The translations under genes and the position numbers were made by a program. Under the pieces are notes generated by a model. The model was not told the DNA's origin, did no database searches, and saw only the letters and a program-made list of their open reading frames with translations. This document shows positions 5,230 through 62,999 of a DNA stretch of 64,000 nt, one piece after another. Source of the stretch: Schmidtea polychroa (taxonomy: Eukaryota); the NCBI GenBank assembly GCA_044892525.1, contig CM097885.1, positions 8,062,001 to 8,126,000 of the forward strand. The letters are read 5' to 3'. Within the stretch, counting starts at the first letter, position 1. Every line of letters starts with the position of its first letter.

Positions 5230-5290
5230 TACAACAAGAAGATTTAATATTAAATTTAATGTCGGGTAATGAAGGATTAGCACCCATTGT

Positions 5291-8637: not shown

Positions 8638-8742
8638 TTCTACAATAATTTAAAATATGATGTTTTATTTATACTAATACCGTAAGATTTTGATTGGTTG
8701 ATAGACTATAAATGTAAAAGAAAAGTTTTGATTTGATACACC

Positions 8743-9429: not shown

Positions 9430-9532
<103 letters not shown>

Positions 9533-9569
9533 TTTAAATAAATTGAAAGATAATAGGTTAGAAAAAAAA

Positions 9570-28416: not shown

Positions 28417-29101
28417 CCATTTCCCAGAGAAAAGTAAATTTTTCCCAATTAAAAGTAAATTTTTCCCATTTAAAAGTAAATTTTTCCCATTTAAAAGTAT
28501 AGTAATTTAAACAAAAATTATTTATTATAACAAGTAAATATAAATAAAACAAATATTATTACAAGGTTCATAAGTAAGCATTAAATTTTATTTACACGTG
28601 ATGGTAAGGCAAACCTGCAGCTGCATTTGTTATATTTCTAGACATTAGCCTAAAAAATCCTGGTGCATCATCAGAAGTCACTTGTGTTGATGCATTAGTA
28701 ATCATTTGAGATAGATTTCCAACATTTTCTGTACTTAACATTCCACGCACAATACATTTTTATTTTCGAAAAAGCGGATTCAATCGGATTAAGCATGTAG
28801 GAATATGGTGAGAGAAAATGATAAATGAATCATGTCTGTCTGTTAAATTTTCTTCTTCCATTATGGTTTTAAAAACTTTATTCCTATGCTATTTTGGCGG
28901 TAAACATATTTTAACAGAACATAATATTAAAACACATTTTCAATATTTTTTTAAATTTTAAATTAATTTTTGTTATTTATGGTTGCAATTTAAAATTTAC
29001 TTTTAATTGGGAAAAATTTACTTTTAATTGGGAAAAATTTACTTTTAAATGGGAAAAATTTACTTTTAATTGGTAAAAATTTACTTTTCTCTGGGAAATG
29101 G
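28417..29101. mobile_element. Foldback-like MITE with TA flanks; TIRs built of 20-bp tandem units
   Basis: CCATTTCCCAGAGAAAAGTAAATTTTTCCCAATT... and its reverse complement; TATA on both sides. Confidence 0.8.
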
Positions 29102-34894: not shown

Positions 34895-35590
34895 AAATTT
34901 GAACCTTAATTTATTTTAATTTTAAAATTTGGACCTTAATTTACTTATCTGAACCTTAATTTAATTTAATTTAAAAATTTAGACCTTAATTTACTTTAAT
35001 TTAAAAATTCAGCCCATAATTTACTTTAATTAAATTTTTAGACTTTTAATTTACTTTAATTTAATAATTTAGACCTTAATTTACTTTAATTTAAAAATTT
35101 GAACTTTAATTTACCTATTTATCCTTAATTTACCATACTTTTTTTTATTGAAGATCCTTTTTGTATTGAAAATCCCAGGACCAAAGAGACCCACCCAAAT
35201 TTACATAGAAAATTCTTTGACTTTTTATTGAAGACCCCGTTTTTGTATTCAAATTCTCAGGATCGAAAAATTCATGCTTTTTTAACGAGAATCGGATTTT
35301 GTATTGAAAATCACCAGGACAAAGAAGACGCCCTCACTTCAGTCAGAGAAATCCTAGCTTTTTTCTATAAGACTTTTTTTTTGTATTGAAATTCCCAGGT
35401 TCCATCGAGACCCCCTCACTATAGTCAGAAAAATCCTGGCTTTTTTTATAGACCCTTTTTTTGTATTGAAAATCCCAGAAAAAATAAGTGTAGCCCACTG
35501 CAGCGGTTATGTAACCAAAAAATAAAAAGAAAACTTATGCAGCAGACCATCCACCGGCAGGTTGCTGCAGCGGGCTACTAACTACCTACT
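34895..35590. mobile_element. Diverged right terminus of an element related to element B
   Basis: GTTGCTGCAGCGGGCTACTAACTACCTACT versus ATTGCTGCCGCGGGCCACTAACTCCCTACT (61897); same ~30-bp TTACTTTAATTT repeats and GAGACCCACCCAAA / CCCTCACTATAGT motifs. Confidence 0.75.
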
Positions 35591-42529: not shown

Positions 42530-44316
42530 GTATTGTGAATTATCGAGCCCTTAGCGATAACACAAATTAAAAAACTGTAAAAAATGAAACTTTTGCAGAC
42601 TCCGCGATAATTAATAAACTAAAAATTGCAACAAAATGAACCTTTGCATCAATATGAATTATTGAGCCCTCGCGATAACTAATAAATTGGAACAAATTGA
42701 ACCTTTGTAGCATTATGAATTATCGAGCCCCCGCGATAACTAATAAAGTGCAACAAAATGAACCTTTGCATCATTATGAATTATCGAGCCCCGCGATAAC
42801 TAATAAATTGCAACCAATTGAACCTCTGCAGCATTATGAATTATCGAGCCCCCGCGATAACTAATAAATTAACAAAATTGCAACCAATTGAACCTTTGCA
42901 GCATTATGAATTATCGAGCCCCCGCGATAACTAATAAAGTGCAACAAAATGAACCTTCGCATCATTATGAATTATCGAGCCTTCGCGATAACTAATAAAG
43001 TGCAACAAAATGAACCTTTGCATCATTATGAATTATCGAGCCCCGCGATAACTAATAAATTGCAACCAATTGAACCTCTGCAGCATTATGAATTATCGAG
43101 CCCCCGCGATAACTAATAAATTAACAAAATTGCAACCAATTGAACCTTTGCATCATTATGAATTATCAAGCCCCCGCGATAACTAATAAATTGCAACCAA
43201 TTGAACCTTTGCATCATTATGAATTATCAAGCCCCCGCGATAACTAATAAATTGCAACCAATTGAACCTTTGCAGCATTATCAATTATCGAGCCCCCGCG
43301 ATAACTAATAAATGAACAAAATTGCAACAAATTGAACCTTTGCAGCATTATGAATTATCGAGCCCCCGCAATAACTAATAAATTGCAACAAATTGAACCT
43401 TTGCATCATTATGAATTATCAAGCCCCCGCGATAACTAATAAATTGCAACCAATTGAACCTTTGCAGCATTATGAATTATCAAGCCCCCGCAATAACTAA
43501 TAAATTGCAACAAATTGAACCTTTGCATCATTATGAATTATCGAGCCCCCGCAATAACTAATAAATTGCAACCAATTGAACCTTTGCAGCATTATGAATT
43601 ATCAAGCCCCCGCGATAACTAATAAATTGCAACCAATTGAACCTTTGCATCATTATGAATTATCAAGCCCCCGCGATAACTAATAAATTGCAACCAATTG
43701 AACCTTTGCAGCATTATCAATTATCGAGCCCCCGCGATAACTAATAAATGAACAAAATTGCAACAAATTGAACCTTTGCAGCATTATGAATTATCGAGCC
43801 CCCGCAATAACTAATAAATTGCAACAAATTGAACCTTTGCATCATTATGAATTATCAAGCCCCCGCGATAACTAATAAATTGCAACCAATTGAACCTTTG
43901 CAGCATTATGAATTATCGAGCCCCCGCAATAACTAATAAATTGCAACAAATTGAACCTTTGCATCATTATGAATTATCGAGCCCCCGCAATAACTAATAA
44001 ATTGCAACCAATTGAACCTTTGCATCATTATGAATTATCGAGCCCCCGCAATAACTAATAAATTGCAACAAATTGAACCTTTGCAGCATTATGAATTATC
44101 AAGCCCCCGCGATAACTAATAAATCGCAACCAATTGAACCTTTGCATCATTATGAATTATCAAGCCCCCGCGATAACTAATAAATTGCAACCAATTGAAC
44201 CTTTGCAGCATTATCAATTATCGAGCCCCCGCGATAACTAATAAATGAACAAAATTGCAACAAATTGAACCTTTGCAGCATTATGAATTATCGAGCCCCC
44301 GCAATAACTAATAAAT
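42530..44316. repeat. Tandem satellite, 61-bp unit with 70-bp variants
   Basis: AATTGCAAC[AC]AATTGAACCTTTGCA[GT]CATTATGAATTATC[AG]AGCCCCCGC[GA]ATAACTAATA repeated roughly 28 times. Confidence 0.95.
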
Positions 44317-47300
44317 ATCTAATATATCAAATTTCATAGTTTGATAATTTTTGTTTGCATTAATAAAAATAAATTCCCGTAACTATGCAAATAATCCTTA
44401 ACCACAAACACGAAGAATATGCACAAAACAAAAAATACCCAAGAAAAACGAAATTAATTAAAAATATTATTTAAATAATTTCGTCCGATTAAGTCAAAGA
44501 AATCATTAAATAATAAAAATATATTATTAGATACCTGTTTAAATGTCGAAGGTGCGCATAAATAAAAGACACCTTGAAACATTTTAATTGCATCTTTAAA
44601 TTCTTCCAAAATACATTTCAATGAGTTTTTTTCATCATTCACAACGGCTTTCTTGTAATGATGTAAGTAATTCAAAGGAAACACTAGTCAAAAATTACCT
44701 TGATGTTAGCAACATTATTTTCAAAAGCTTTTACAATACAATTCATGTTTTTAATATTTTTCGAAAATCTTTGAAGAACTTTCAATTGGTTTTCAATAAA
44801 AGAAACATCGTGCATAATTGATTGTTCAATGAATCGTAAATTGTGTGAACAATAACCAGAATCTTTATATTTTAAGCTTAAATATATCCAATTTGATTTT
44901 ATTATAATAACTAAAAATCTATATTTTTCAAAATCATTGCTGTTGATACAATTTATCGAAGTAAAATAAACTAAATCTGGAAGCAGTAAAATTAAATCTT
45001 CAATTAACTAACCACTTATTTTGGAAATTTCATTTACATTAAAATCCGATTTTTGATACAAGTAAAATAAGGAGTCAATAATTGACATTTGATTTTTAAA
45101 TAAAAAAATGAATATTTAAACAAAACGTTAAAAAAGAATTATATTGAGATTTAAGTTATTTGTAAAATGTTTTATAAAATTTAAGTATTAATTTAATTAA
45201 ATAATTTTAGAGTTTTGTACATTGTACATTTTACAGTGATTTAAATAGTATTGTAAGAAATGTGTAATATTTAAATTGTAAATAAATGAAATAAATGTAT
45301 ATTAAATTTCCAAAAACTTTGAATTCGATTTATATTTTGGTTAGAAGTGTAGGGTTTTTTGAATTCCTAAAAAAGTTTTTTTTCACTATTCAATTGTTAT
45401 TATTCATAAATATGAAAATGCCGACCTACTTTTCCCAAAGCAATCGCATTTATTCGATTTGCCATTTGGCACTAGTGTTGGGCTGAATTACTAGGTTCGA
45501 ATGATTTGACACTGAGTCGGATGTGGAGGTAAGGCCTGAGACTAAATTGGATGAAAAGGAAGAAAAGGTCAGAATAAAAACAACTTAGCAAATAAATTTG
45601 ACATCGAACAAATTAAATAAACTAGAAAATAAAGAAAATCTGTTTTATATAAATATCATAAGAAATAGGAGTAATCAGAAAAACAAGATATTAACCACGA
45701 ATAATTGACAAAAGGGGAAAATAATTTAATAAAGAAAAAACCAAAGTTGAAAACGGGAAAAATTAAATAAGAACATAAAACACATAAAATATCAACCAAA
45801 TTAAGAAAAATGGAGAAAATGAATGATTACACACATAAGATCTAGCAGAAAACCCACAAAAATTATGTAGAAAATAAGAAATAAATAAAACAATGAATTA
45901 ATAAAATAAAAACAAAATAATACATAATAAAAACAAATTAAAAATAAAAAATAATAAAAAATGAACAAAATACAACACAGCTTAGTCCTGATTGGACCAA
46001 AAATAGTATGTAATACAGAAGCTAAGTCATTACATTAACTCCACAAAAATTTATACAGACTCAACTCTAACAAATTGACTACAGCTCATTACGAATCAAG
46101 GACAGACATCATTCAACAGATATACGAAACTCATCTCAGCGAAGAAACTATTCACGACAGATAAATTGAGGAACAACTCAGGAACACTTACATCCGATTT
46201 AGACTCAAAACCTTTGAACTAACTGCTAAAAGATCCAAGTAATAATGTTTGATTACTTTTATGAATTGGTAATAATAGTAAGTTTCCATGTGTAAAATTT
46301 TAACCAATAAATTAGTTCAATGATGGACAAATTTGACTTCATCTTCTTCACGGGACTGGTGACGATACTGTCTGGAAGCTTCGATCATGATGTCGATGAA
46401 TTGAATGCAGAACCAACGATGGATTGGAAATATGAATGAAGGATGAACCAAAATTGTCGAAAATGAATATGAATTGATGATATACAGATGATCAATAAAT
46501 GCCATTGAGAGAATTTTTGAAACATGAAGAAAATCGAATCTCTTGCAGGAATTGTGTGGAAGATATGAAGGATTTTGAGAGAAGAAATGATATTATAACT
46601 TGATAAGTAATGCCAAAAAATGACTTAGTAACGACGAGGATGAACATCATGATTGGAATTCAAATGGCATGGTCGCCAGGTAAATTAATGATATTTGTTT
46701 TTAGTTATTTAATTAGAAAATATTTGATATATTCATATATTTTATTGGTGATTTTCATGATATTGATTTGAGTTCCTCTGTCTATCGTGACGGTGTGAGG
46801 ACGGTGGGTAGCAATACCGGTGGTCCTCAGGTGTGTCACGGTAAGTGGAAAGACTCCGAGGTAGATAAATAATAGTTGGAGGAACAATTTGAGAGAATGC
46901 TGAGGTCTTCATTGGATCGTAATAGACAAAAAAACCATTTTATAAAAATCCGTAACGAAGTCATCAGCCAGAGCAATTACTCAGAGCGAATGTCGGCATT
47001 TAATTGTTTACCACCATAGATAGGGGAAAACCCAACAAGGCAATTTTCGGAGCCAAGTAATCGTCGATTTCCTATTTCTATAGATCTGCAGAGAATCACA
47101 TTTACTCGCCATGAGTCGAGATAAATCCACTTGTTCGTGCTAGATGAAAATTTTCCAACAATCTTAGACAAAACGACTATCATTCATCGGACTCCAATAT
47201 TCCTTTCGCTAGCTTGGCATTCACATCCATGAATTCGTCAGGGAATCCATCGTGTCATTACAATTCACCATCTGCAGATAGTGCCGCATTCGACCAACAT

Positions 47301-48789
47301 CTGATATCTCTATTATGATAAATATAAACATTTATCGCCCGCGAAATCTGCTAGAAATATTGTCTAGTCCTAAAGCAATTGACATTAAGATAAACCATCT
47401 CGATCACAGCAAATGCTAATTATCACAAAAGTTGTCACCGTCTTCCTTATCACAATCTGCAAATTTGACAATTAGAGAATCACCGATAGAAATAAGTCCA
47501 ACCAGTTAAATCAATATAAATTCCTCTGACAAGAGATAAAGATGAACAATTTATCTTACACGCAATATTACTGATTTTAATAAATGTCACACAGCGACAA
47601 AATATTAGGCGACTAAATCATAGTCTAATGGATGGAATAAACATTGTACAATGAACATAATTATGTACGGAAAGGGGAAATTATATTAATTTCGTTAATG
47701 TTTATCGAGGTGAATAAATTTAATTTATTAATTAAGGTATAATTACTTGGGCAAATGACCCTCCCCGTATATACTATAGATGATTCAAATAAACTTGATC
47801 GTAGGGATCCCAGTCATTATAGAATGTAAATAATTTGTAAGAATAAATAATAAAATTTTTCGATCAAATTTCCACCCGACTATTTTTCAGTGTTTAATGA
47901 TGAAATTTATTCTAAATGAAATTTATTATATTTTCCTTTAGTAGTATAAAGTAAAAGAGAAGGGGTTATTGTTATGAGTTTGGTTCGCTTCACTAATACC
48001 TCTTTCTAGTAGTATTCTGATTATGTAAATTTCTTTCAGTTATGAGCGAGCCAAATTTACATACAAAAGGACTCCAACCGTGCTTTTCTTGCGCGGACAA
48101 AAACGAAGACATTCGTAAGCTTCATGAATATATCGAGGCTCTCAAAAAACGTATAGAAACTTACGAAGGCACGTGGTTCTCCCCGACACAAATGAAGGAG
48201 GAGAAAACAAAAATCTTGAGACTGAAGCACTGTTGAGACAGTCTTCTAGAAAAGAGCCGATGTCAGCGGCTAACCATTAAAGCCCAATCGGAGGCGCTTC
48301 AAAAAGTATAACCCGACTCAGAAATCCTAAAGAGAGTGCGAGAGTACCCCATCCAAGACGGAACAAACGTGTTCCCCATTCATCATCATAATGACGAAGT
48401 GCCGCAACCATCAACGAGTTGCTTGGGGCACGGATTCCAGTTCTCGCCAGTAGGGAGTTAGTGGCCCGCGGCAGCAATAGGGGGGGGGGTAAAAAATGTT
48501 GCAAACTTTTGATTGCATAACTTTTTCCGTAGACATTTTTTGATTACATAATTGTTGCCGTAATGCCCAATGTTTTCTGGGATTTTAAATACAAATTTTT
48601 TTTTTTTTTTTTTTTCAATAAACAAGCCAAGGATAAATATTATTTGGGTGGGTCTCCTTGGTCCTGAGAATTTCAATAGAAAAAGGTAGTCTTCAATAAA
48701 AAAGCATGGATTTTTCACACTATAGTGAGGGGATCTTCTTGGTCATGAGAATTTCAATAGAAAAGGTGGTTTACATTAAAAAACGCATA

Positions 48790-49440
48790 GTAAATTTTTA
48801 AAATAAAGTAAATTATGGGTCTAAAATTTAAAAATAAAGTAAATGATGGGTCTAAAAATTTAAGTAAATCAAGGTTCAGATTTATTTTTGAAATAAAGTA
48901 AATTATGGTCTAAATAAGTAAATTATGGGCTAAGATTTTTCAATTAAAGTAAATAATGGTTCTAAAAAAATTAAATTACAGTAAATTATGGTCCAAATTT
49001 TTAAATTAAAGTAAATTATGGTTCTTAAAAATTAAATTAAAGTAAATTATGGTTCTTAAAAATTAAATTAAAGTAAATTATGGTCAAAATTTTTGAATTA
49101 CAGTCCAAAAATTTAAATTAAAGTAAATTATGATCCAAATTTTTAAATTAAAGTAAATAATGGTTCTAAAAAATTAAATTAAAGTAAATAATGGTCCAAA
49201 TATTTTAAATTACAGTAAATAATGGTTCTAAAAATTAAATTACAGTAAATAATGGTCAAAAATTTTAAAATTAAAGTAAATTATGGTTCTAAAAATTAAA
49301 TTAAAGTTAATTAAGGTCCAAATTTTAAAATTAAATAATCAATGGTAAAAAAAAATTTAAATTAAAGTTAAATAAGTAAATTAAAGTAATAATTTTTAAA
49401 TAAGTAAATTAAAGTAATGTAATAAGTAAATTAAAGTAAG
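48790..49440. repeat. Subterminal ~30-bp tandem repeats, left arm (mirrored at ~60895-61550)
   Basis: AAATTAAAGTAAATTATGGTYC units. Confidence 0.85.
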
Positions 49441-49625
49441 ATTTTTAAATTTATTAACAAAAATAGAAGGTGTTTGAGAATTGAAATTTTTTAATGGAAA
49501 TTTTAATGAATTATTTTTTAAGTAATTTTTAATAGAAATTTTTATGAATAATTTTCAATGGTAATTTTTAATGGAAATTTTAATAGAATAATTTTTAAGA
49601 TAATTTTTAATGAAAATTTTTATGA

Positions 49626-49684
<59 letters not shown>

Positions 49685-49871
49685 TAATATTAATAATATA
49701 TCAACCAAATACTATACAACACATAAAAAATTAACTAAACACATAAAAATAACTAGACACATAACAAAACATATAAACATTAACTAAACACATAAAAATG
49801 AACTAGACACATAACAAACATAAAAATTTACCAAATAACAAATGTAAAGATATAAAATTTATTCAATAAAA

Positions 49872-52800
49872 TTAGTCCTCATCGGACAAAATAACGTCAT
49901 CGATATCGATGTCATCTTCTCCAAAATCTTCATTTAATTCTTCCTCATCTTCTCCATCATTTTCTCCACCATTTTCTGAAACATTTTCTGCAACAATTTC
50001 TCCAACATTTTCTCCAATATTTAATTCACTTAATCTTACATGCCCATATGCAAGACTAGTATTTTGCCCCACCCAAACCCTTTTGTCATCTTTGTTAGTT
50101 AGTGCTATTTTTGTGTTTTTAATTGTAAAAATTTGATGATTTTTGCTTGTTATTTTAGTCTGAGGAACCGAAAAAATCTGGTTAGTGTTATAACAATCCA
50201 GGTATGACTGATGTTTTATGTCACCACCTTTCAATGTTACACCTTTAGCCTTTTTTGTTTCCTCATCACCCAACAAGCTATAACATTTAGGTCTAAGAAA
50301 AACCCACTCCTTATATTTAAGACCTTTATTCTCGTCTTTGAACTTTCCAATGACTGAATCAAGGTTCTTACTATATAAGGAATGACAACTATTGTAATTG
50401 GAAGTATCCAATAAATTATCTCGAACCATTGCAGGTAAAAGAACCTCAAGTTTGCAGTTAATGACTTCGAGGAAAAAAGAATCTGTATCACCTGCAACGA
50501 TATTAATTTTACAATTAAACTCATTGCGAAATGATTCCAGATCCTTATATTGCAATTCATACATTCTAAGTTTAGATAGATCAAGTACAGATTGACCAAT
50601 GTAACTCGGTCTATCTAAACATATAGAATCGGAATTCAATAGTGCTGCAATTAAATTATCTGCTATTTTAATAGATTTTTTAAAAGTCGGTTTTGACGAA
50701 TATTTAACTAATTTACCGGCAGTTGTACAAAGACGAAGATTCATTCTTCTCTTTAAATTTTCAACTGTTTTGCCGTATAAACTATTATTTAGCAATTTAT
50801 AATAATTTTTATCTAAGCTATTTACGCTTTTTGATCTTAATTCGGTATTTGTATCTATATATTTTTTAAAAATTGGTGATTGCTTAAATCTTACACCCCT
50901 ATTTACACGTGTTACTTTAACACCAAGTTCCAAATATAATTTTAATAATCTCCAATGAATAACATAATTAGATTTTGGAAGATGAGTTAATAATAATTTT
51001 TCAACCTTAGACCCAGCAGGTTTCATTTTTTCAGCAGCTACAGGGAAATCATCCAACTTATCATGAAGCTCAGAAGGAATTACAAGATCAACTTCAAGTG
51101 TGTATCCATAAGACAAAGATTCAAGATTTAAATTCCTACATTCATCCATTATTTTATCAAATCCATCAAGAACCCAACAAAATTCGCCACAAGGTAATGA
51201 TTGACTTAAAGCCCAGCCATAAAGATTATTAATATCTATATATAGTAACTCAGTGTTCTCGTCGGTTTTTACGTAATGCTTATTCACAAAAGTAAGACCG
51301 CCTCTTATTCCACCCTCATAAAAGCTAAACATTTCGTTTTCAGTTATGAGTTCAATTGGTTCATTTAAAGACATTAATGCAGAAGACCAAGACATGCCTG
51401 GAATTCCGAAATAATTCAATGGTTCCAATCTATTGTGAGCAATGGATTTCAACCGAAACTGATGAAAGAAATCAGCCAAAAGAAAACAATCAAGTTTTAG
51501 GTAGATCATCATATAATCTAATAAAGTTACGCAATTAGTTTCTACCCAAATCTCCTGAGCTTTTTCATACTCAAGCTCAGTGACACCCTCCCAGATTGGT
51601 GGTAATTCATAAGTAGTTTGGAGAATATCTAAAGAAGTGGCGAAATTATAAGGGAAGATTCCTTTTTCACTTACTATGGTGCCAGAAAAAGCAGAATTAG
51701 TAAAAGGCAAAGAATTCAAAGTTTTGACTGCTTTAGCCAAAGAATCATTGACAAATTGATACGAATCAATGAATCTTAGGCTAATTTTACCTAAATGAGC
51801 AATCAAAGATATAAATTTTTCCGTAGTTATTGGGATGCACCCTAAATTCCAATTTTTAAATTTATTTAATCCATATTTAAGTATATGGTGCATATCGTAT
51901 CCCTTCAAGTTGTGAAATACGATAGGCAAAATTTTATTTATTTTCCTATTTACGTTACATGTGCTACAAGCTGCACCCAAGTATTTCCCCGTAAAATGAT
52001 CGTGATCTCTAACAGGATCGACGATAGATTTCATACAAAGATAACAAACAGATGCACTAACAAATTGACGTTGTTCAATTTTTGTTAATTTCATCATAGG
52101 TTTCCTACCCATTTTATAATAAAAAGGAAGAACCTTATTTAATGCTATATCCTCTATAGCACTTAAAAAACTCTCGACGCAATCTAAACCTATGAACTGC
52201 TGATAAGATTTAGATCCGTCAAAGTTATTTACAAGTAAAAGACCAGCAGATATTGGCATGTGTCGTTGGAAATGATCATTATCAGAAGGTAAAATAGCCT
52301 CAAAATCTGCATAAACTACAAAAGGAGGAGTTACTGTTTTCGACCAGTCAGTAAACTGTAATAATTTATTTTGAGGGAAGGTGTAAAGAGTTGTTCCTAA
52401 TTGATTACGTTTACATAATATTTCATGTTTTTCTAGTGCGTGTTTATTATTAAACCCATTCAAACACCGATGGCACCATAATGAACGTATGCGTGTAGGA
52501 CAACTAGTGTTGATATGACAATTCATTAACTTATTTAAATTACTTATAGCAACGTAATGGAAATTGTTTCCTTTATTTAATAATAGTAAATTAATTACAG
52601 TTCCATTTAAAACTTTGGAACGATGTATAATATCTAAATGTGGGTGTTTTAATACGTAATTATCTATTAATTGTTTGTTATTGTCATAAGAAAAAACGTT
52701 AATTATTAAGCCTGGATTTTTGGCCTCGAATTTTCTAATATCTTTTAATTTCATGGGTAAGTCCAATGGATTATATATTAATTCAGATAAATTATAACTG

Positions 52801-53651
52801 GATGTCCTATTTTTAGCATAACTACTAACCTCATCATATTTTAAAATAGCTAAAATGCTATATAAAAAACATGAATCATCGGTGTTTTTTATATTAATTA
52901 AACAATATTTATTTTTTAGATAAGTAGGTGTTTCAATGAAACTCCTACCACTTAATCTACTTAGCCTACTTATTTTTGTTATGGTGAAATGTATTTCAGT
53001 GATATTTTTTATATTCCAACTGCTTCCTAACTCAGTAATATTAGTAATTTTCTCATTTAATTCCTTAATGCCTTCATCAAAAAATGATGCAGTTAAAGGC
53101 TTTGCATAATTTGAGATATTATTAACCTTTATTTCCCCGTCTTTTTCAAATTCGATTGTTATTCCGAATTGAATTTTGACGGAGCCTAATTCGTTAATAA
53201 TATCTCGTAATTTTTTTATTAGTTGTTCAGGAAATATTATTTCTTTTATATTTAAGTCGCTTGTATTTAAGCTTAATATTTGATGGGTACCTCTTAGATC
53301 TTTTTGTATTATTGGAACATTTCCACCTATTTGTATTATATTTAATCCATCCCAAGAGTCAAGGGAAATATTATCTAATCCGACCTGGGATTCAACAACC
53401 AATCCATCATGGGATTCGACAACCAATCCATCATTGGATTCCACAAAAGGCAATCCGTCCTGGGATTCAAAAGAAGAAGTATCTAATTTAATTTTTTTAT
53501 TTTTATTATTTTTTTCTATAGTTGAGGGTCTTTTAAAAACACTATCTTTTTTAAAATTAAACCTATCTAAATGATTTTTATGTTTATTATAAAAAACGCT
53601 ATATGTTACGGGGTCACTAGTCTTACATACGGGACATATTTTAAAACACAT
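49872..53651 (-). CDS. polB: Protein-primed family B DNA polymerase (Polinton type), 1259 aa
   Basis: Exo I YADFE; CxxC..RDHDH..TG..CxxCN endonuclease-VII-like insert; Exo II FHNLKGYD; motif A YIDINNLYG; motif B KLLNNSLYGK; motif C GDTDS. Confidence 0.95.
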   Translation of the reverse strand: MCFKICPVCKTSDPVTYSVFYNKHKNHLDRFNFKKDSVFKRPSTIEKNNKNKKIKLDTSSFESQDGLPFVESNDGLVVESHDGLVVESQVGLDNISLDSWDGLNIIQIGGNVPIIQKDLRGTHQILSLNTSDLNIKEIIFPEQLIKKLRDIINELGSVKIQFGITIEFEKDGEIKVNNISNYAKPLTASFFDEGIKELNEKITNITELGSSWNIKNITEIHFTITKISRLSRLSGRSFIETPTYLKNKYCLINIKNTDDSCFLYSILAILKYDEVSSYAKNRTSSYNLSELIYNPLDLPMKLKDIRKFEAKNPGLIINVFSYDNNKQLIDNYVLKHPHLDIIHRSKVLNGTVINLLLLNKGNNFHYVAISNLNKLMNCHINTSCPTRIRSLWCHRCLNGFNNKHALEKHEILCKRNQLGTTLYTFPQNKLLQFTDWSKTVTPPFVVYADFEAILPSDNDHFQRHMPISAGLLLVNNFDGSKSYQQFIGLDCVESFLSAIEDIALNKVLPFYYKMGRKPMMKLTKIEQRQFVSASVCYLCMKSIVDPVRDHDHFTGKYLGAACSTCNVNRKINKILPIVFHNLKGYDMHHILKYGLNKFKNWNLGCIPITTEKFISLIAHLGKISLRFIDSYQFVNDSLAKAVKTLNSLPFTNSAFSGTIVSEKGIFPYNFATSLDILQTTYELPPIWEGVTELEYEKAQEIWVETNCVTLLDYMMIYLKLDCFLLADFFHQFRLKSIAHNRLEPLNYFGIPGMSWSSALMSLNEPIELITENEMFSFYEGGIRGGLTFVNKHYVKTDENTELLYIDINNLYGWALSQSLPCGEFCWVLDGFDKIMDECRNLNLESLSYGYTLEVDLVIPSELHDKLDDFPVAAEKMKPAGSKVEKLLLTHLPKSNYVIHWRLLKLYLELGVKVTRVNRGVRFKQSPIFKKYIDTNTELRSKSVNSLDKNYYKLLNNSLYGKTVENLKRRMNLRLCTTAGKLVKYSSKPTFKKSIKIADNLIAALLNSDSICLDRPSYIGQSVLDLSKLRMYELQYKDLESFRNEFNCKINIVAGDTDSFFLEVINCKLEVLLPAMVRDNLLDTSNYNSCHSLYSKNLDSVIGKFKDENKGLKYKEWVFLRPKCYSLLGDEETKKAKGVTLKGGDIKHQSYLDCYNTNQIFSVPQTKITSKNHQIFTIKNTKIALTNKDDKRVWVGQNTSLAYGHVRLSELNIGENVGEIVAENVSENGGENDGEDEEELNEDFGEDDIDIDDVILSDED

Positions 53652-54616
53652 TTTGACGCTAAAGTTGACTTATTTAACATTTTCATAATAATTTAATAAA
53701 AATAATGTGATGAACCCACAAAGTAATATCATTTTTCATCAAATTGCAAAACAGTAATAACGTTTTCATAAAATTGTAACAAAGTAATAACATATTTCAG
53801 ATAAATTTTCAACAGTTGTAAAATATTTAAGCAAATTGTAACAAGATTAGAAAATATTACAACAAAGTAGTAACATATTTCAGAAAATTTCAACAAATTT
53901 GTAAAATATTTATCAAATTGTAACTAAAATAATAAAAATATTGCAACAAAGTAATAAAATAATAATGGTAATTAAGACAAATCAATACATTATTTCGAAG
54001 ACGGACAACAAATTAAAAAGAATATTGTAACTAAAATAATAAAAATATTGCAACAAAGTAATAAAATAATACAACATTTTAAACTCTAGATCAATCCATT
54101 TTATAGAAAATTAAATTTTATCTATATAATATATGAATAAATATCCAAGGAAATTACGTTAACGTATAATAAATACAAATTTATCGTAAAAACATGTGTG
54201 TATTACACACAAAACAAGATACATAATTTCTAATCAATCCATTTTATAGAAAATTAAATTTTATCTATATATTATATGAATAAAATCCTAAGAAAATTAC
54301 GTTAACTGTATGAAAAATACAAATTTAACATAAAAACATGTGTGTATTACACACAACATACGAGACATATTTTTTAATCAAGCTATTTTATAGAAAATTA
54401 AATTTTATCTATATAATATATGAATAAAAATCCAAGAAAATTACGTTAACCGCGCGAAAAACTACAAATTTATTGTAAAAACATGTATGCATTACACACA
54501 AAGCATCAAACTGAAATTGTAATTGCGCCATGTTGTAGAGAATTAAATTCTGCCTATACATTGTTACACTTAAATCTCGATCAGACATGTGAAAAGAGAC
54601 ATAAAAGAGAAAGAAC

Positions 54617-55703
54617 AGTAGAGTAGTATGATTGGGGCCATCCAGACCAGGTCACCGCCAGGCCACATATACCCTCTCCCCCCCGTGTGTAAAATAATGT
54701 TAATAATAATATTTATACATCAGTAGATAGATCTTGCACTAAGCTTCAAAATAAGCTATCCAATAATAAATTCGGATAATGGGAACGATAACTTTGGGGC
54801 AAACGAAAACCAGGTCACCGCTGGACCACTAATAATTATATGACCTTGAAAATGATTTTTGGTTAAATGTTAATAACTTTGTTAATATTAATGATGATGA
54901 TACCTTCCATGGATCAATCGAAAGGTCTTAGACCGAGCTTTAAAATGAGGTATCGTTTAATAATATTTGTTGGCGGGAACTCTGTATATTTAAATTTTAA
55001 AATATGACCTTGAAAAATTAAATGATCACTTAATTAAAACAAAAAATTAAATTAAAAAATGACCTTGAAAAAAAATGACCTTGGGAATGACCTTGATGAG
55101 TCACGCGACCTTGAAAAAATAAATGACCTTGGAAATAATAATATTTTGAAAAATAAATGACCTTGAAAAATGGTCTCGGTAAAACTTTAATAACTTTGCC
55201 GATGTTAATGATGATGATACTTTCTATGGCTCAATTGAAAGGTCTTAGACTACGCTTCAAAATAAGCTATCTATTAATAAATTCGGATAATGGGAACATT
55301 AATTTTTGGGATGAGAAAAAGTATGTCCCCGCCCGGCCAATTAATAATATTTTGAATAATAATAATAATTTAACGTTGAAAAGATGGTGGTCATCAATTG
55401 TTAATAACTTTGTCAATATTAATGATGATGATACCTTCTATGGATCAATCGAAAGGTCTTGGACTGAGCTTTAAGATGAGGTATCGTCCAATAAAATCCG
55501 TTGGTGGGAACATTAATTTTTGGGATGAAAAATAGTAGGGGCCATCCCGGCCAATTAATTAAAACAAAAAATTAAATTAAAAAAAAAATAAATGACCTTG
55601 ACCTTTTATTTAAAAAAAAAATTTTTTTTCCCGGGGGGGGGGAGGGGGTATATGTGGTCTGGAGGGGACATGGTCTGGATGGCCCACATCATACTACTCT
55701 ACT
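54617..55703. promoter_or_regulatory. Central unit between the divergent polB genes: AGTAGAGTAG...CTACTCTACT borders, ~70-bp diverged inverted repeats, three direct repeats and clustered TGACCTTG
   Basis: Seen directly; function inferred. Confidence 0.5.
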
Positions 55704-56668
55704 GTTCTTTCTCTTTTATGTCTCTTTTCACATGTCTGATCGAGATTTAAGTGTAACAATGTATAGGCAGAATTTAATTCTCTACAACATGGCGCAATTA
55801 CAATTTCAGTTTGATGCTTTGTGTGTAATGCACACATGTTTTTACAATAAATTTGTAGTTTTTCGCGCGGTTAACGTAATTTTCTTGGATTTTTATTCAT
55901 ATATTATATAGATAAAATTTAATTTTCTATAAAATAGCTTGATTAAAAAATATGTCTCGTATGTTGTGTGTAATACACACATGTTTTTATGTTAAATTTG
56001 TATTTTTCATACAGTTAACGTAATTTTCTTAGGATTTTATTCATATAATATATAGATAAAATTTAATTTTCTATAAAATGGATTGATTAGAAATTATGTA
56101 TCTTGTTTTGTGTGTAATACACACATGTTTTTACGATAAATTTGTATTTATTATACGTTAACGTAATTTCCTTGGATATTTATTCATATATTATATAGAT
56201 AAAATTTAATTTTCTATAAAATGGATTGATCTAGAGTTTAAAATGTTGTATTATTTTATTACTTTGTTGCAATATTTTTATTATTTTAGTTACAATATTC
56301 TTTTTAATTTGTTGTCCGTCTTCGAAATAATGTATTGATTTGTCTTAATTACCATTATTATTTTATTACTTTGTTGCAATATTTTTATTATTTTAGTTAC
56401 AATTTGATAAATATTTTACAAATTTGTTGAAATTTTCTGAAATATGTTACTACTTTGTTGTAATATTTTCTAATCTTGTTACAATTTGCTTAAATATTTT
56501 ACAACTGTTGAAAATTTATCTGAAATATGTTATTACTTTGTTACAATTTTATGAAAACGTTATTACTGTTTTGCAATTTGATGAAAAATGATATTACTTT
56601 GTGGGTTCATCACATTATTTTTATTAAATTATTATGAAAATGTTAAATAAGTCAACTTTAGCGTCAAA

Positions 56669-59600
56669 ATGTGTTTTAAAATATGTCCCGTATGTAAGAC
56701 TAGTGACCCCGTAACATATAGCGTTTTTTATAATAAACATAAAAATCATTTAGATAGGTTTAATTTTAAAAAAGATAGTGTTTTTAAAAGACCCTCAACT
56801 ATAGAAAAAAATAATAAAAATAAAAAAATTAAATTAGATACTTCTTCTTTTGAATCCCAGGTCGGATTGCCTTTTGTGGAATCCAATGATGGATTGGTTG
56901 TCGAATCCCATGATGGATTGGTTGTCGAATCCCATGATGGATTGGTTGTTGAATCCCAGGTCGGATTAGATAATATTTCCCTTGACTCTTGGGATGGATT
57001 AAATATAATACAAATAGGTGGAAATGTTCCAATAATACAAAAAGATCTAAGAGGTACCCATCAAATATTAAGCTTAAATACAAGCAACTTAAATATAAAA
57101 GAAATAATATTTCCTGAACAACTAATAAAAAAATTACGAGATATTATTAACGAATTAGGCTCCGTCAAAATTCAATTCGGAATAACAATCGAATTTGAAA
57201 AAGACGGGGAAATAAAGGTTAATAATATCTCAAATTATGCAAAGCCTTTAACTGCATCATTTTTTGATGAAGGCATTAAGGAATTAAATGAGAAAATTAC
57301 TAATATTACTGAGTTAGGAAGCAGTTGGAATATAAAAAATATCACTGAAATACATTTCACCATAACAAAAATAAGTAGGCTAAGTAGATTAAGTGGTAGG
57401 AGTTTCATTGAAACACCTACTTATCTAAAAAATAAATATTGTTTAATTAATATAAAAAACACCGATGATTCATGTTTTTTATATAGCATTTTAGCTATTT
57501 TAAAATATGATGAGGTTAGTAGTTATGCTAGAAATAGGACATCCAGTTATAATTTATCTGAATTAATATATAATCCATTGGACTTACCCATGAAATTAAA
57601 AGATATTAGAAAATTCGAGGCCAAAAATCCAGGCTTAATAATTAACGTTTTTTCTTATGACAATAACAAACAATTAATAGATAATTACGTATTAAAACAC
57701 CCACATTTAGATATTATACATCGTTCCAAAGTTTTAAATGAAACTGTAATTAATTTACTATTATTAAATAAAGGAAACAATTTCCATTACGTTGCTATAA
57801 GTAATTTAAATAAGTTAATGAATTGTCATATCAACACTAGTTGTCCTACACGCATACGTTCATTATGGTGCCATCGGTGTTTGAATGGGTTTAATAATAA
57901 ACACGCACTAGAAAAACATGAAATATTATGTAAACGTAATCAATTAGGAACAACTCTTTACACCTTCCCTCAAAATAAATTATTACAGTTTACTGACTGG
58001 TCGAAAACAGTAACTCCTCCTTTTGTAGTTTATGCAGATTTTGAGGCTATTTTACCTTCTGATAATGATCATTTCCAACGACACATGCCAATATCTGCTG
58101 GTCTTTTACTTGTAAATAACTTTGACGGATCTAAATCTTATCAGCAGTTCATAGGTTTAGATTGCGTCGAGAGTTTTTTAAGTGCTATAGAGGATATAGC
58201 ATTAAATAAGGTTCTTCCTTTTTATTATAAAATGAGTAGGAAACCTATGATGAAATTAACAAAAATTGAACAACGTCAATTTGTTAGTGCATCTGTTTGT
58301 TATCTTTGTATGAAATCTATCGTCGATCCTGTTAGAGATCACGATCATTTTACGGGGAAATACTTGGGTGCAGCTTGTAGCACATGTAACGTAAATAGGA
58401 AAATAAATAAAATTTTGCCTATCGTATTTCACAACTTGAAGGGATACGATATGCACCATATACTTAAATATGGATTAAATAAATTTAAAAATTGGAATTT
58501 AGGGTGCATCCCAATAACTACGGAAAAATTTATATCTTTGATTGCTCATTTAGGTAAAATTAGCCTAAGATTCATTGATTCGTATCAATTTGTCAATGAT
58601 TCTTTGGCTAAAGCAGTCAAAACTTTGAATTCTTTGCCTTTTACTAATTCTGCTTTTTCTGGCACCATAGTAAGTGAAAAAGGAATCTTCCCTTATAATT
58701 TCGCCACTTCTTTAGATATTCTCCAAACTACTTATGAATTACCACCAATCTGGGAGGGTGTCACTGAGCTTGAGTATGAAAAAGCTCAGGAGATTTGGGT
58801 AGAAACTAATTGCGTAACTTTATTAGATTATATGATGATCTACCTAAAACTTGATTGTTTTCTTTTGGCTGATTTCTTTCATCAGTTTCGGTTGAAATCC
58901 ATTGCTCACAATAGATTGGAACCATTGAATTATTTCGGAATTCCAGGCATGTCTTGGTCTTCTGCATTAATGTCTTTAAATGAACCAATTGAACTCATAA
59001 CTGAAAACGAAATGTTTAGCTTTTATGAGGGTGGAATAAGAGGCGGTCTTACTTTTGTGAATAAGCATTACGTAAAAACCGACGAGAACACTGAGTTACT
59101 ATATATAGATATTAATAATCTTTATGGCTGGGCTTTAAGTCAATCATTACCTTGTGGCGAATTTTGTTGGGTTCTTGATGGATTTGATAAAATAATGGAT
59201 GAATGTAGGAATTTAAATCTTGAATCTTTGTCTTATGGATACACACTTGAAGTTGATCTTGTAATTCCTTCTGAGCTTCATGATAAGTTGGATGATTTCC
59301 CTGTAGCTGCTGAAAAAATGAAACCTGCTGGGTCTAAGGTTGAAAAATTATTATTAACTCATCTTCCAAAATCTAATTATGTTATTCATTGGAGATTATT
59401 AAAATTATATTTGGAACTTGGTGTTAAAGTAACACGTGTAAATAGGGGTGTAAGATTTAAGCAATCACCAATTTTTAAAAAATATATAGATACAAATACC
59501 GAATTAAGATCAAAAAGCGTAAATAGCTTAGATAAAAATTATTATAAATTGCTAAATAATAGTTTATACGGCAAAACAGTTGAAAATTTAAAGAGAAGAA

Positions 59601-60472
59601 TGAATCTTCGTCTTTGTACAACTGCCGGTAAATTAGTTAAATATTCGTCAAAACCGACTTTTAAAAAATCTATTAAAATAGCAGATAATTTAATTGCAGC
59701 ACTATTGAATTCCGATTCTATATGTTTAGATAGACCGAGTTACATTGGTCAATCTGTACTTGATCTATCTAAACTTAGAATGTATGAATTGCAATATAAG
59801 GATCTGGAATCATTTCGCAATGAGTTTAATTGTAAAATTAATATCGTTGCAGGTGATACAGATTCTTTTTTCCTCGAAGTCATTAACTGCAAACTTGAGG
59901 TTCTTTTACCTGCAATGGTTCGAGATAATTTATTGGATACTTCCAATTACAATAGTTGTCATTCCTTATATAGTAAGAACCTTGATTCAGTCATTGGAAA
60001 GTTCAAAGACGAGAATAAAGGTCTTAAATATAAGGAGTGGGTTTTTCTTAGACCTAAATGTTATAGCTTGTTGGGTGATGAGGAAACAAAAAAGGCTAAA
60101 GGTGTAACATTGAAAGGTGGTGACATAAAACATCAGTCATACCTGGATTGTTATAACACTAACCAGATTTTTTCGGTTCCTCAGACTAAAATAACAAGCA
60201 AAAATCATCAAATTTTTACAATTAAAAACACAAAAATAGCACTAACTAACAAAGATGACAAAAGGGTTTGGGTGGGGCAAAATACTAGTCTTGCATATGG
60301 GCATGTAAGATTAAGTGAATTAAATATTGGAGAAAATGTTGGAGAAATTGTTGCAGAAAATGTTTCAGAAAATGGTGGAGAAAATGATGGAGAAGATGAG
60401 GAAGAATTAAATGAAGATTTTGGAGAAGATGACATCGATATCGATGACGTTATTTTGTCCGATGAGGACTAA
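56669..60472 (+). CDS. polB: Protein-primed family B DNA polymerase, second copy, 1267 aa
   Basis: Same motifs; one extra 8-aa VESHDGLV repeat and 5 visible amino-acid substitutions versus the left copy. Confidence 0.95.
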   Translation: MCFKICPVCKTSDPVTYSVFYNKHKNHLDRFNFKKDSVFKRPSTIEKNNKNKKIKLDTSSFESQVGLPFVESNDGLVVESHDGLVVESHDGLVVESQVGLDNISLDSWDGLNIIQIGGNVPIIQKDLRGTHQILSLNTSNLNIKEIIFPEQLIKKLRDIINELGSVKIQFGITIEFEKDGEIKVNNISNYAKPLTASFFDEGIKELNEKITNITELGSSWNIKNITEIHFTITKISRLSRLSGRSFIETPTYLKNKYCLINIKNTDDSCFLYSILAILKYDEVSSYARNRTSSYNLSELIYNPLDLPMKLKDIRKFEAKNPGLIINVFSYDNNKQLIDNYVLKHPHLDIIHRSKVLNETVINLLLLNKGNNFHYVAISNLNKLMNCHINTSCPTRIRSLWCHRCLNGFNNKHALEKHEILCKRNQLGTTLYTFPQNKLLQFTDWSKTVTPPFVVYADFEAILPSDNDHFQRHMPISAGLLLVNNFDGSKSYQQFIGLDCVESFLSAIEDIALNKVLPFYYKMSRKPMMKLTKIEQRQFVSASVCYLCMKSIVDPVRDHDHFTGKYLGAACSTCNVNRKINKILPIVFHNLKGYDMHHILKYGLNKFKNWNLGCIPITTEKFISLIAHLGKISLRFIDSYQFVNDSLAKAVKTLNSLPFTNSAFSGTIVSEKGIFPYNFATSLDILQTTYELPPIWEGVTELEYEKAQEIWVETNCVTLLDYMMIYLKLDCFLLADFFHQFRLKSIAHNRLEPLNYFGIPGMSWSSALMSLNEPIELITENEMFSFYEGGIRGGLTFVNKHYVKTDENTELLYIDINNLYGWALSQSLPCGEFCWVLDGFDKIMDECRNLNLESLSYGYTLEVDLVIPSELHDKLDDFPVAAEKMKPAGSKVEKLLLTHLPKSNYVIHWRLLKLYLELGVKVTRVNRGVRFKQSPIFKKYIDTNTELRSKSVNSLDKNYYKLLNNSLYGKTVENLKRRMNLRLCTTAGKLVKYSSKPTFKKSIKIADNLIAALLNSDSICLDRPSYIGQSVLDLSKLRMYELQYKDLESFRNEFNCKINIVAGDTDSFFLEVINCKLEVLLPAMVRDNLLDTSNYNSCHSLYSKNLDSVIGKFKDENKGLKYKEWVFLRPKCYSLLGDEETKKAKGVTLKGGDIKHQSYLDCYNTNQIFSVPQTKITSKNHQIFTIKNTKIALTNKDDKRVWVGQNTSLAYGHVRLSELNIGENVGEIVAENVSENGGENDGEDEEELNEDFGEDDIDIDDVILSDED

Positions 60473-60659
60473 TTTTATTGAATAAATTTTATATCTTTAC
60501 ATTTGTTATTTGGTAAATTTTTATGTTTGTTATGTGTCTAGTTCATTTTTATGTGTTTAGTTAATGTTTATATGTTTTGTTATGTGTCTAGTTATTTTTA
60601 TGTGTTTAGTTAATTTTTTATGTGTTGTATAGTATTTGGTTGATATATTATTAATATTA

Positions 60660-60709
<50 letters not shown>

Positions 60710-62999
60710 TCATAAAAATTTTCATTAAAAATTATCTTAAAAATTATTCTATTAAAATTTCCATTAAAAATTACCATTGAAAATTATTCATAAAAATTTC
60801 TATTAAAAATTACTTAAAAAATAATTCATTAAAATTTCCATTAAAAAATTTCAATTCTCAAACACCTTCTATTTTTGTTAATAAATTTAAAAATCTTACT
60901 TTAATTTACTTATTACATTACTTTAATTTACTTATTTAAAAATTATTACTTTAATTTACTTATTTAACTTTAATTTAAATTTTTTTTTACCATTGATTAT
61001 TTAATTTTAAAATTTGGACCTTAATTAACTTTAATTTAATTTTTAGAACCATAATTTACTTTAATTTTAAAATTTTTGACCATTATTTACTGTAATTTAA
61101 TTTTTAGAACCATTATTTACTGTAATTTAAAATATTTGGACCATTATTTACTTTAATTTAATTTTTTAGAACCATTATTTACTTTAATTTAAAAATTTGG
61201 ATCATAATTTACTTTAATTTAAATTTTTGGACTGTAATTCAAAAATTTTGACCATAATTTACTTTAATTTAATTTTTAAGAACCATAATTTACTTTAATT
61301 TAATTTTTAAGAACCATAATTTACTTTAATTTAAAAATTTGGACCATAATTTACTGTAATTTAATTTTTTTAGAACCATTATTTACTTTAATTGAAAAAT
61401 CTTAGCCCATAATTTACTTATTTAGACCATAATTTACTTTATTTCAAAAATAAATCTGAACCTTGATTTACTTAAATTTTTAGACCCATCATTTACTTTA
61501 TTTTTAAATTTTAGACCCATAATTTACTTTATTTTAAAAATTTACTATGCGTTTTTTAATGTAAACCACCTTTTCTATTGAAATTCTCATGACCAAGAAG
61601 ATCCCCTCACTATAGTGTGAAAAATCCATGCTTTTTTATTGAAGACTACCTTTTTCTATTGAAATTCTCAGGACCAAGGAGACCCACCCAAATAATATTT
61701 ATCCTTGGCTTGTTTATTGAAAAAAAAAAAAAAAAAAAATTTGTATTTAAAATCCCAGAAAACATTGGGCATTACGGCAACAATTATGTAATCAAAAAAT
61801 GTCTACGGAAAAAGTTATGCAATCAAAAGTTTGCAACATTTTTTACCCCCCCCCCCCCCCCCCCCCTATTGCTGCCGCGGGCCACTAACTCCCTACTCTC
61901 GCCCTTAGTCGAACCTATCTTGTCGGGATCAACAAAGAAAGCGAACTCCCAGACGACCTCAATCAAGAGTGTGTCTTCCACGATAGTTAATCATGTCGTC
62001 GAATCTACCCTCTCTGCTCCAAAGAAGCTTAAGCGTACTTCTTCAGCGGAAAAGAATCAAAAGCGTCAAGACACCATTGCGGCATTAGAAGCTTCCATAT
62101 TTGCTGCTCAAACCTCCAATAATATGATTCCCCAACCAAATGTGCCCGTAGGAACGGAAATTTATCGTCTCGTTCCTGCTGTAGAAACCAGAATAAATGG
62201 AAGACGCTCGGCTCCAGGTTGATATCGACGCCCTAATAGCCGAGGGTGAAGTGTTTTGACGATTTTTCGACATCTGATTCGTGAAAAGATTTTCTAATCC
62301 ACTCGAACATTTCTCCGGATATCCTGTGTAATAAACGAACTTGTTGTATTGAGTTAAGTCTGGTTTTGTATAACAATTATACTGTGCGACCTTATCTTAT
62401 TAGTTTTTACTGTACGTCTTTTTGATTTTCTGTTAAGCATCATGTTTGAAATCAATCGCCTGAAGTTTTTCGTTACTAAAGTCGTCCTCTTGGACCAGGG
62501 TCGTACTGATTGAATAAATGAACAGGATAAGTCATTCCATGGCACCATTGAACCTGTACCGAGATTCTGCCAGGAGTAGTTCTACCATAGGAGCTCACCT
62601 GCTGGTAGACTCCAACCCATGTGCGCATTTCTAACGTGTTACATCACCACGGGCACACATGAGGGAGATGATATGCAAGTCATACTGGTTGCTTAGGGAA
62701 CACTCTGAGTACGCAAAAAATTTGTTTTTCCCCTAAGTAACCAACACTAGTGAATGTTGCTAATGTTAAATATATGTATAGTTTTCAGTTAAAATTGAAC
62801 TTCATTTCTAAAACTGTTAATAGTGTGACGAATCTTGAGTGGGACGTCTACCGGTGCAAGTTTCCTATTCAAATTAAACCTTTATTGTCCATAAACAAAA
62901 AGGATTTTGACAACTACGCTTCAAGAAAAACCGTTAATAAATTTATTGATGTTTAAGCAGATTAAGAAATGGACGTCAAAAATAATATTTAAGAACTTG

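What the first reader, a model, noticed from the sequence alone, without database searches (positions are those of the whole stretch)
54617..55703. Centre of the palindrome looks like a nested mini-element with Polinton-like ends, suggesting a copy-back origin
Arm identity drops sharply just inside AGTAGAGTAGTATGA (54617) / TCATACTACTCTACT (55703). Inward of this lie ~70 bp of clearly diverged inverted repeat ending in C/G runs, an architecture like the outer termini (AGTAG start, then a homopolymer run). Inference: an older internal inverted repeat let a displaced single strand form a panhandle, and pPolB then copied the polB arm, analogous to adenovirus panhandle end repair. It could also act as an internal origin.
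Basis: inference. Interest (0 to 1): 0.7.

Follow-up and report, generated by a model that had tools for sequence, protein, structure and literature searches.

The report
Polinton-type ends inside a giant palindrome
A virus-like jumping element made of two mirror-image polymerase arms carries, at the point where the mirror symmetry stops, an older 1.1-kb module with its own transposon-type ends, the likely fold-back point from which one arm was copied, though that module does not appear to be spreading on its own.

Summary
Observation confirmed. The host element (48449-61897, 6-bp TSD, two intact pPolB copies) has arms with 6 substitutions in about 6.2 kb. Identity breaks in one step at 54619-54632, just inside AGTAGAGTAGT ends that match the other element ends in the window. 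The 1,087-bp centre is a 68-bp, 90%-identical inverted repeat around four old direct repeats. Ends and core share a 16-nt motif that is absent from the arms, so it is a module of separate origin. No stand-alone copy was found: no whole genome was available, and in contigs of 4 runs depth falls inside the left border. A diverged relative carries the same junction. Best reading (0.5): an old, fixed relic of a Polinton-type element whose inverted ends primed fold-back copying of one arm. Copying by pPolB and use as an internal origin are inferred only; gene conversion or host repair give the same structure. The scan earlier noted several foldback Polinton families in this genome and one in another genome. 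The notes I saw do not mention an end-bounded centre.

The parts
48443..48448 (+). left target-site duplication CTCGCC
48449..54616 (.). left arm (6,168 bp): outer AGTAG end, G-run, subterminal 31-bp array, pPolB, upstream 30/83/144-bp arrays
49872..53651 (-). pPolB ORF, left copy (1,259 aa), reads outward
54617..54684 (+). inner left end: AGTAGAGTAGT, two 16-nt GC-rich motifs, C-run
54619..54632 (.). support interval of the step in arm-versus-arm identity
54685..55635 (+). asymmetric core: four direct repeats of about 160-215 bp (56-78% alike), three ending in the 16-nt motif; A/T tracts; 8 TGACCTTG; no long ORF, no Rfam match
55636..55703 (-). inner right end, 89.7% identical to the inner left end
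55704..61897 (.). right arm (6,194 bp), mirror of the left arm
56669..60472 (+). pPolB ORF, right copy (1,267 aa), with EndoVII/HNH-like insert
61898..61903 (+). right target-site duplication CTCGCC

Best explanation
The 1,087-bp centre is an old, now fixed relic of a Polinton-type element (a pair of diverged ends around its own repeat array) sitting upstream of polB in this family. Its 68-bp inverted ends were the fold-back point. A single strand running from one outer end through polB and the centre stopped at or near the far inner end, paired with the near inner end, and was extended back along the arm, most likely by the element's own strand-displacing pPolB. The result has a correct outer origin at both ends, so it can be replicated and can be inserted by an integrase supplied by a full Polinton. 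Shown: anatomy, the step in identity, the end motif, the separate origin of the module, the 6-bp TSD, the junction in a diverged relative. Inferred: the fold-back event, the enzyme, trans-mobilisation.
For: Step in identity at 54619-54632, next to the inner end. End motif found only at element ends, 5 vs 0.16 expected. Inner ends are built of a 16-nt motif that also closes core units u1, u3 and u4 (13-14/16), with no match of 13/16 or better in the arm or the remaining 50.6 kb; core units have no homology to the arm outside the border. Flanks of the unit are inverted, as copy-back requires. One contig with 18 substitutions and 6 gaps bridges the left junction, 54571-54717 (X9 record 32), so the junction predates this copy. 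Both arms share letters that are minority alleles in the family at non-repeat sites 53215/53217/53222 (1-3% in X1), so the arms were copied from each other after the subfamily split. Depth over the right junction relative to polB (0.43, 0.30, 0.019, 0) follows the share of those alleles (about 0.5, 0.2-0.5, 0.01-0.03, 0) across 4 runs. Panhandle end repair is a published model for protein-primed genomes (PMC11886824, passages).
Against: No one-armed parent carrying both inner ends was seen: no genome held, and 0 of 82 relative loci show the end motif or two opposed polB copies, but most are too short to tell. The likeness of inner to outer ends is only about 11 nt and the motif was chosen post hoc. 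Gene conversion or host fold-back repair would leave the same sequence. Three plus-strand relative contigs stop aligning at 54595-54605, 11-21 nt outside the border rather than at it. Contig depth sums are not copy numbers, and relatives' right ends may have been laid on the left end. PMC11886824 itself says direct evidence for panhandles is lacking.
Confidence: 0.5

Rival explanations
1. TIR extension by recombination or gene conversion, as in Galileo: one arm was copied over the other end by homology-driven repair. The inner repeat is only the old limit of the conversion tract and primed nothing.
For: TIR extension by recruitment of internal sequence is described for Galileo, and the same passage mentions Polinton inverted repeats (PMC3573991, passages). 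Butterfly polintons have about 2-kb TIRs holding duplicated genes (10.1101/2025.02.07.637071, passages). Sixteen perfect nt inside the border have probability 0.07-0.13 by chance, so the border need not be AGTAG.
Against: A conversion tract has no reason to stop within 2-16 nt of an element-end motif that occurs only at ends; a plain AGTAG within 20 nt has about 1.2% chance. The contiguous 68-bp stem stayed 10% diverged while the arms are 0.1% diverged.
Confidence: 0.17
2. The inner ends are working ends. A one-armed 7.25-kb molecule (outer end, polB, centre, inner end) is made by priming or cutting at the inner end and is copied back to the palindrome again and again, which keeps the arms identical and the inner repeat diverged.
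For: A 3' end exactly at 55703 would give this product without trimming. The junction is old (record 32) while the arms are 99.9% alike and share subfamily alleles. AGTAG-AGTAG is a short terminal repeat of the kind needed for jumping-back priming (PMC8097293, passages). An unchecked scan note says polymerase-carrying relatives in this genome are also palindromic (e1-8072377).
Against: A single recent fold-back founding one subfamily explains the same data. No loose end at either inner border among 24 of 1,744 rows shown. The inner ends share only about 11 nt with the outer ends.
Confidence: 0.15
3. Host fold-back priming: a double-strand break near the old inverted repeat of an integrated Polinton was repaired by host polymerase into an inverted duplication, which was later excised and spread.
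For: Breaks near natural inverted repeats give inverted duplications through Pol delta in yeast (PMC10622511, abstract). The junction structure would be the same.
Against: The duplication ends exactly at the element's outer ends with a clean TSD. Several separate foldback families with Polinton ends are noted in this genome (unchecked), which points to a Polinton-specific route.
Confidence: 0.1
4. The centre is a currently mobile MITE-like mini-element that recently jumped into this copy.
For: It has TIRs, an end motif, no ORF and MITE-like size. Core repeats are 1.5-3.5 times deeper than polB in 4 of 4 runs, so they also occur in longer arrays or other contexts.
Against: Ends 10% diverged, no direct TSD, no second copy in the window, depth inside/outside the left border 0.61, 0.26, 0.39, 0.81, share of records running on into unlike sequence 0, 0, 0, 0.05, junction present in a diverged relative.
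Confidence: 0.06
5. Fold-back read or assembly artefact.
For: Giant palindromes are a known artefact of long reads (recalled). No contig spans the whole stretch.
Against: Unique flanks with a direct 6-bp TSD and an open host frame across the empty site; arms differ at 6 sites and 3 indels; contigs cover the right-junction bin in 3 of 4 runs.
Confidence: 0.02

Closest known systems
Polinton/Maverick elements with EndoVII/HNH-bearing pPolB (pPolB2-like; 10.1101/2023.08.22.554363, passages)
   Same: Protein-primed PolB with an endonuclease insert, AG-starting ends, 6-bp TSD, total length 13.4 kb; distant polB relatives lie beside integrase and A32-like ATPase genes (L036, L050).
   Different: No integrase, ATPase, protease or capsid; arms of 6.2 kb against 100-1,500 bp; polB is duplicated; a second pair of element-type ends lies inside. 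Assignment to the pPolB2 clade was not tested with a tree.
Polintons with gene-bearing extended TIRs in butterflies (10.1101/2025.02.07.637071, passages)
   Same: Long inverted arms that duplicate core genes.
   Different: About 2-kb TIRs with hexon and adenain around a gene-rich interior; here the arms make up 92% of the element and the interior is a non-coding, end-bounded module.
Adenovirus inverted-repeat-directed end repair and inverted-repeat-derived gutless genomes (Wang et al. 1991 and Steinwaerder/Lieber 1999; titles seen in reference lists; content recalled)
   Same: An internal inverted repeat leads to a genome with the same end region duplicated on both sides of the repeat-bounded segment.
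   Different: Engineered, episomal and helper-packaged; here natural, integrated with a TSD, multiplied in a host genome, and the repeat itself has element-type ends.
Galileo/Foldback elements with extended TIRs (PMC3573991, passages and first part of Discussion)
   Same: Non-autonomous copies with arms extended over internal sequence, internally repetitive ends, internal short inverted repeats in some subfamilies.
   Different: P-element transposase family, TIRs up to about 1.3 kb, no polymerase; extension attributed to recombination or conversion.
Copy-back and snap-back defective viral genomes (PMC13506859, passages)
   Same: Complementary arms made by copying one end, with an unpaired middle.
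   Different: Described mainly for RNA viruses; not integrated; no older terminal motif at the junction.

Membership tests
Polinton/Maverick (whole 13.4-kb element) | protein-primed PolB | tested here: met
   P0001 itself has no Pfam hit at E 0.001; 16 of 29 aligned members hit PF03175 and 28 of 29 hit PF02945; 55% identity over 1,231 aa to P0003; polymerase motifs read by eye
Polinton/Maverick (whole 13.4-kb element) | retroviral-like integrase and virion genes (ATPase, protease, capsids) | tested here: not met
   only the two polB ORFs of 150 aa or more lie in 48449-61897; so a derivative, not an autonomous member
Polinton/Maverick (whole 13.4-kb element) | TIRs and 5-8-bp TSD | tested here: met
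   CTCGCC on both sides; arms 99.1% identical with gaps, far longer than the published 100-1,500 bp
Polinton/Maverick end motif (inner ends) | (AGT)2 or (AG)3 terminal hexamer | tested here: inconclusive
   inner AGTAGA and outer AGTAGG each match AGTAGT at 5 of 6 (motifs from PMC8097293); inner ends share about 11 nt with the two other end types in the window
MITE-like nested non-autonomous element (centre) | terminal inverted repeats, no coding capacity | tested here: met
   68-bp IR at 89.7%; longest stop-free frame 105 codons; no Rfam match
MITE-like nested non-autonomous element (centre) | own direct target-site duplication | tested here: not met
   flanks AAGAAC / GTTCTT are inverted; a copy-back would have erased a TSD, so this does not exclude an old insertion
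MITE-like nested non-autonomous element (centre) | many stand-alone copies in different flanks | tested here: inconclusive
   none in the window or in viral contigs; depth falls inside the left border in 4 of 4 runs; no genome to search; only 24 of 1,744 loose-end rows were shown
Copy-back product primed at an internal inverted repeat | older, imperfect inverted repeat at the junction with identical arms outside it | tested here: met
Copy-back product primed at an internal inverted repeat | one-armed parent holding both repeats | not testable with these tools
   no genome; run contigs are too short; 82 relative loci uninformative
Internal replication origin | terminal-protein-primed initiation at the inner ends | not testable with these tools
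   needs free replicating DNA or an in vitro assay

The most novel reading that the evidence does not exclude
The inner ends are live, captured ends of another Polinton. The element cycles between a one-armed 7.25-kb form with two unlike ends and the 13.4-kb palindrome, rebuilding its second arm by copy-back from the inner end. This would keep the arms identical while the inner repeat ages, would be a natural record of panhandle-primed repair in Polinton replication, and would explain how this genome keeps producing foldback Polinton families.
Probability: 0.15. Interest if true: 0.8.

Novelty: new variant of a known kind. Interest (0 to 1): 0.5.

Why it matters
Polinton replication through a folded single strand has been a model without direct evidence. 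A natural palindrome whose symmetry stops at a pair of older element-type ends gives a fixed, predicted breakpoint that can be checked in every copy of a very abundant family. If the breakpoint recurs, it shows how gene-duplicating arms and foldback Polinton satellites arise, and it extends inverted-repeat-directed end repair from engineered adenovirus to a natural transposon family. If it does not, this is one more case of TIR extension.

Tried and rejected
Whole-genome search for the unit: impossible, no genome held. Unit elsewhere in the window: only self matches and A/T-run noise. Exact patterns of the inner end and of the core repeat in viral contigs: 0 and 0. Single-protein scan of viral contigs: 0 relatives. 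Alignment scans gave 77 + 5 loci; 0 of 82 have the end motif or polB on both strands, and none matches the centre or outer TIR in DNA; close relatives lie on 1-4.5-kb contigs, so this is uninformative. PDB sequence search of the polymerase: 0. Rfam on 53600-56700: 0. Idea that AGTAG is just part of a repeat running across the border into the arm: rejected, no homology outside the border. Older hidden symmetry in the loop: none. Family alleles at 54328 and 54370 (window letter under 1%): dropped, because paralogous 144-bp units carry the other letter. Low depth at 55588-55683: mostly a mask (55555-55657 skipped), not used as evidence of a rare right end; absence of cover there in X3 proves nothing. 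Minus-strand pieces in table 8 were not used because the direction of their record coordinates is ambiguous. A second AGTAG..CTACT pair with a 6-bp match (21169-31151) was taken as chance: ends not complementary. Literature: searches listed no paper on palindromic polB-only Polintons or nested Polinton ends (only the top 20-25 of up to 246 hits were seen, as listings); two searches found no usable text on phi29 palindromes or adenovirus IR vectors, and the 1999 paper is not held. No supplements were read; Repbase entries for non-autonomous Polintons cannot be searched here and may already hold such elements.

Full report
Context. The finding lies at the centre of a 13,449-bp insertion, 48449-61897, that starts AGTAG, ends CTACT and is flanked by a direct 6-bp repeat CTCGCC. 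An open frame of 151 codons runs across the empty site, so this is a real insertion. Each arm carries one long ORF reading outward (1,259 and 1,267 aa). The protein has no Pfam hit at E 0.001 by itself, but 16 of 29 aligned members hit DNA_pol_B_2 and 28 of 29 hit Endonuclease_7, and distant relatives lie beside integrase and A32-like ATPase genes. It is a Polinton-type protein-primed polymerase. No integrase or virion gene is in the element, so it is a non-autonomous derivative.

The observation. The arms differ by 6 substitutions and 3 repeat-length indels up to 54632; all 5 substitutions inside polB change the residue, as expected for neutral decay after a very recent insertion. From 54633 to 54684 there are 7 substitutions and 1 gap (Fisher p 5e-14). 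Beyond that the loop has no more symmetry than shuffles. The best change point is 54632, with support 54619-54632. The inner repeat is 68 bp at 89.7% and folds as a direct continuation of the arm stem around a loop of about 925 nt. The pattern AGTAG(N)GKAGT occurs 5 times in the window against 0.16 expected: both outer ends, both inner ends and a lone end of a related element at 35590. I chose that pattern after seeing the ends, the likeness covers about 11 nt, and the homopolymer is C inside but G outside. Published vertebrate end motifs are (AGT)2 and (AG)3 (PMC8097293, passages); inner and outer ends match the first at 5 of 6.

What the centre is. Each inner end holds two copies of a 16-nt GC-rich motif. 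The same motif closes three of the four core repeats (13-14 of 16), and nothing in the arm or the other 50.6 kb reaches 13 of 16. The core units are 56-78% alike and have no homology to the arm outside the border. Ends and core therefore form one module, old and of separate origin from the arm. This is the layout of a transposon with binding motifs in its ends and subterminal repeats (inference). It has no long ORF and no Rfam match. All 8 TGACCTTG of the window lie in it, on one strand (1.2 expected); six are the full reverse complement of TCAAGGTCA, the Esrrb/Nr5a2 consensus (PMC8451941, passages). The repeats are not independent, so this is a lead for a shared enhancer between two outward-reading polB genes, not a result.

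Is it free-standing? No genome was held, so I laid contigs of 4 of 12 runs (3 studies) on 52900-55750. The family is very abundant (39,993, 3,711, 6,024 and 191 records laid). The tool warns that summed depth is no copy number, so only contrasts are used. Depth inside versus outside the left border is 0.61, 0.26, 0.39 and 0.81: no rise, against what a common free element would give. The share of records running on into unlike sequence is 0, 0, 0 and 0.05, and none of the 24 of 1,744 loose-end rows shown lies at a border; contigs break at branch points, so this is weak. Of 32 pieces shown (of 50,672), one bridges the left junction by 31 letters or more on both sides: X9 record 32, 54571-54717, with 18 other letters and 6 gaps. 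The junction is thus older than this copy. Three plus-strand pieces (records 14, 29, 30) stop at 54595-54605 with 50-161 letters unaligned, so other relatives diverge near, but not at, the border. The core repeats are 1.5-3.5 times deeper than polB, and joints that skip or repeat units (15 of 146 shown) indicate arrays of variable length. Longer arrays or other contexts exist that I could not see.

Arms and subfamily. At non-repeat sites 53215, 53217 and 53222 the window's letter makes up 48-57% of depth in X9, 23-54% in X10, 1-3% in X1 and none in X3, and both arms carry it. At 54487, the one arm difference in the laid stretch that appears among the 40 of 237 rows shown, the family letter is that of the right arm. 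So the arms were copied from each other after this subfamily split. Depth in the last bin, which needs right-end-specific sequence joined to the arm, is 0.43, 0.30, 0.019 and 0 of polB depth and follows the allele share. The palindrome with this centre looks like a multiplied subfamily whose abundance differs between samples. Caveat: how the tool places records that fit two sites is not stated, and relatives' right ends may be laid on the left end. I dropped sites 54328 and 54370 because 144-bp paralogues confound them.

Mechanism. Best explanation (0.5): the module was already fixed upstream of polB; a displaced or aborted strand ending at or near its far end folded onto its near end and was extended along the arm, giving two outer origins; integrase came in trans. 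Sharp homogenisation that spares a contiguous 10%-diverged stem and stops beside an end motif is what this predicts. Panhandles are a published model for homology restoration in adenovirus and PRD1, with direct evidence still lacking (PMC11886824, passages). The adenovirus papers on inverted-repeat-directed repair and gutless genomes I saw only as titles in reference lists; their content is recalled. Rivals: conversion-type TIR extension as in Galileo (0.17; PMC3573991, passages and first part of Discussion), recurrent use of live inner ends (0.15), host fold-back repair (0.10; PMC10622511, abstract), a free MITE (0.06), artefact (0.02). Sequence alone cannot name the enzyme, and the internal-origin idea is untested.

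Novelty. Gene-bearing extended TIRs are known in polintons (10.1101/2025.02.07.637071, passages), and extended TIRs in Galileo. Four searches (listings only) showed no paper on a polB-only palindrome or on nested Polinton-type ends at a fold-back point; Repbase and paywalled papers were not searchable and no supplements were read. Earlier scan notes, unchecked, describe gene-less foldback Polinton families of 10.9-17.7 kb in this genome and a 14.8-kb one in another genome, and one says polymerase-carrying relatives are built the same way. They agree with a real, genome-wide foldback tendency but are not evidence for the mechanism. Verdict: a new variant of a known kind, interest 0.5; 0.8 if the inner ends prove to be live (probability 0.15).

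Noticed in passing
window 34886-35590 (- strand): Lone end of a related element: AGTAGGTAGTTAGTAGCCCG, 18 of 20 like the outer end, followed by subterminal repeats 69-77% like the outer TIR; no partner end in the window.
   Followed up: partly
window 54841-55601: All 8 TGACCTTG of the window, one strand, six as full TGACCTTGA (reverse of the Esrrb/Nr5a2 consensus), plus a TGAGTCA near 55097; possible host-factor enhancer between the two polB copies.
   Followed up: partly
window 1-10500: Another large inverted structure (arms at about 46-937 and 7602-10129) with about 150-bp terminal tandem repeats ending in G-runs, and fragmented ORFs including an rve integrase piece at 4600-5091.
   Followed up: no
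window 28413-29105: 693-bp element with 87-115-bp internally repetitive inverted ends starting TATACCATTTCCC and closing ...GGGAAATGGTATA; MITE-like.
   Followed up: no
window 53386-53470 and 56850-56967: A 24-bp coding repeat in the polB N-terminal region differs by one unit (8 aa) between the arms, and contigs skip this place as a repeat.
   Followed up: partly
window 53652-54616: About 1 kb of 30-, 83- and 144-bp arrays upstream of polB; several homologues have 10-35 more N-terminal residues than P0001, which would fit the spliced leader that an earlier scan note proposes for a sister family.
   Followed up: no
window 42497-44316: Tandem array of about 61-bp units, roughly 1.8 kb.
   Followed up: no
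window 19465-20199 and 23318-25093: An intronless ORF with a MENTAL domain (244 aa, internal 90-bp duplication) and a 591-aa ORF without a Pfam match.
   Followed up: no
window 47000-48448 and 61904-62400: The host site looks like a decayed coding region: an open frame spans the empty site; not identified.
   Followed up: partly
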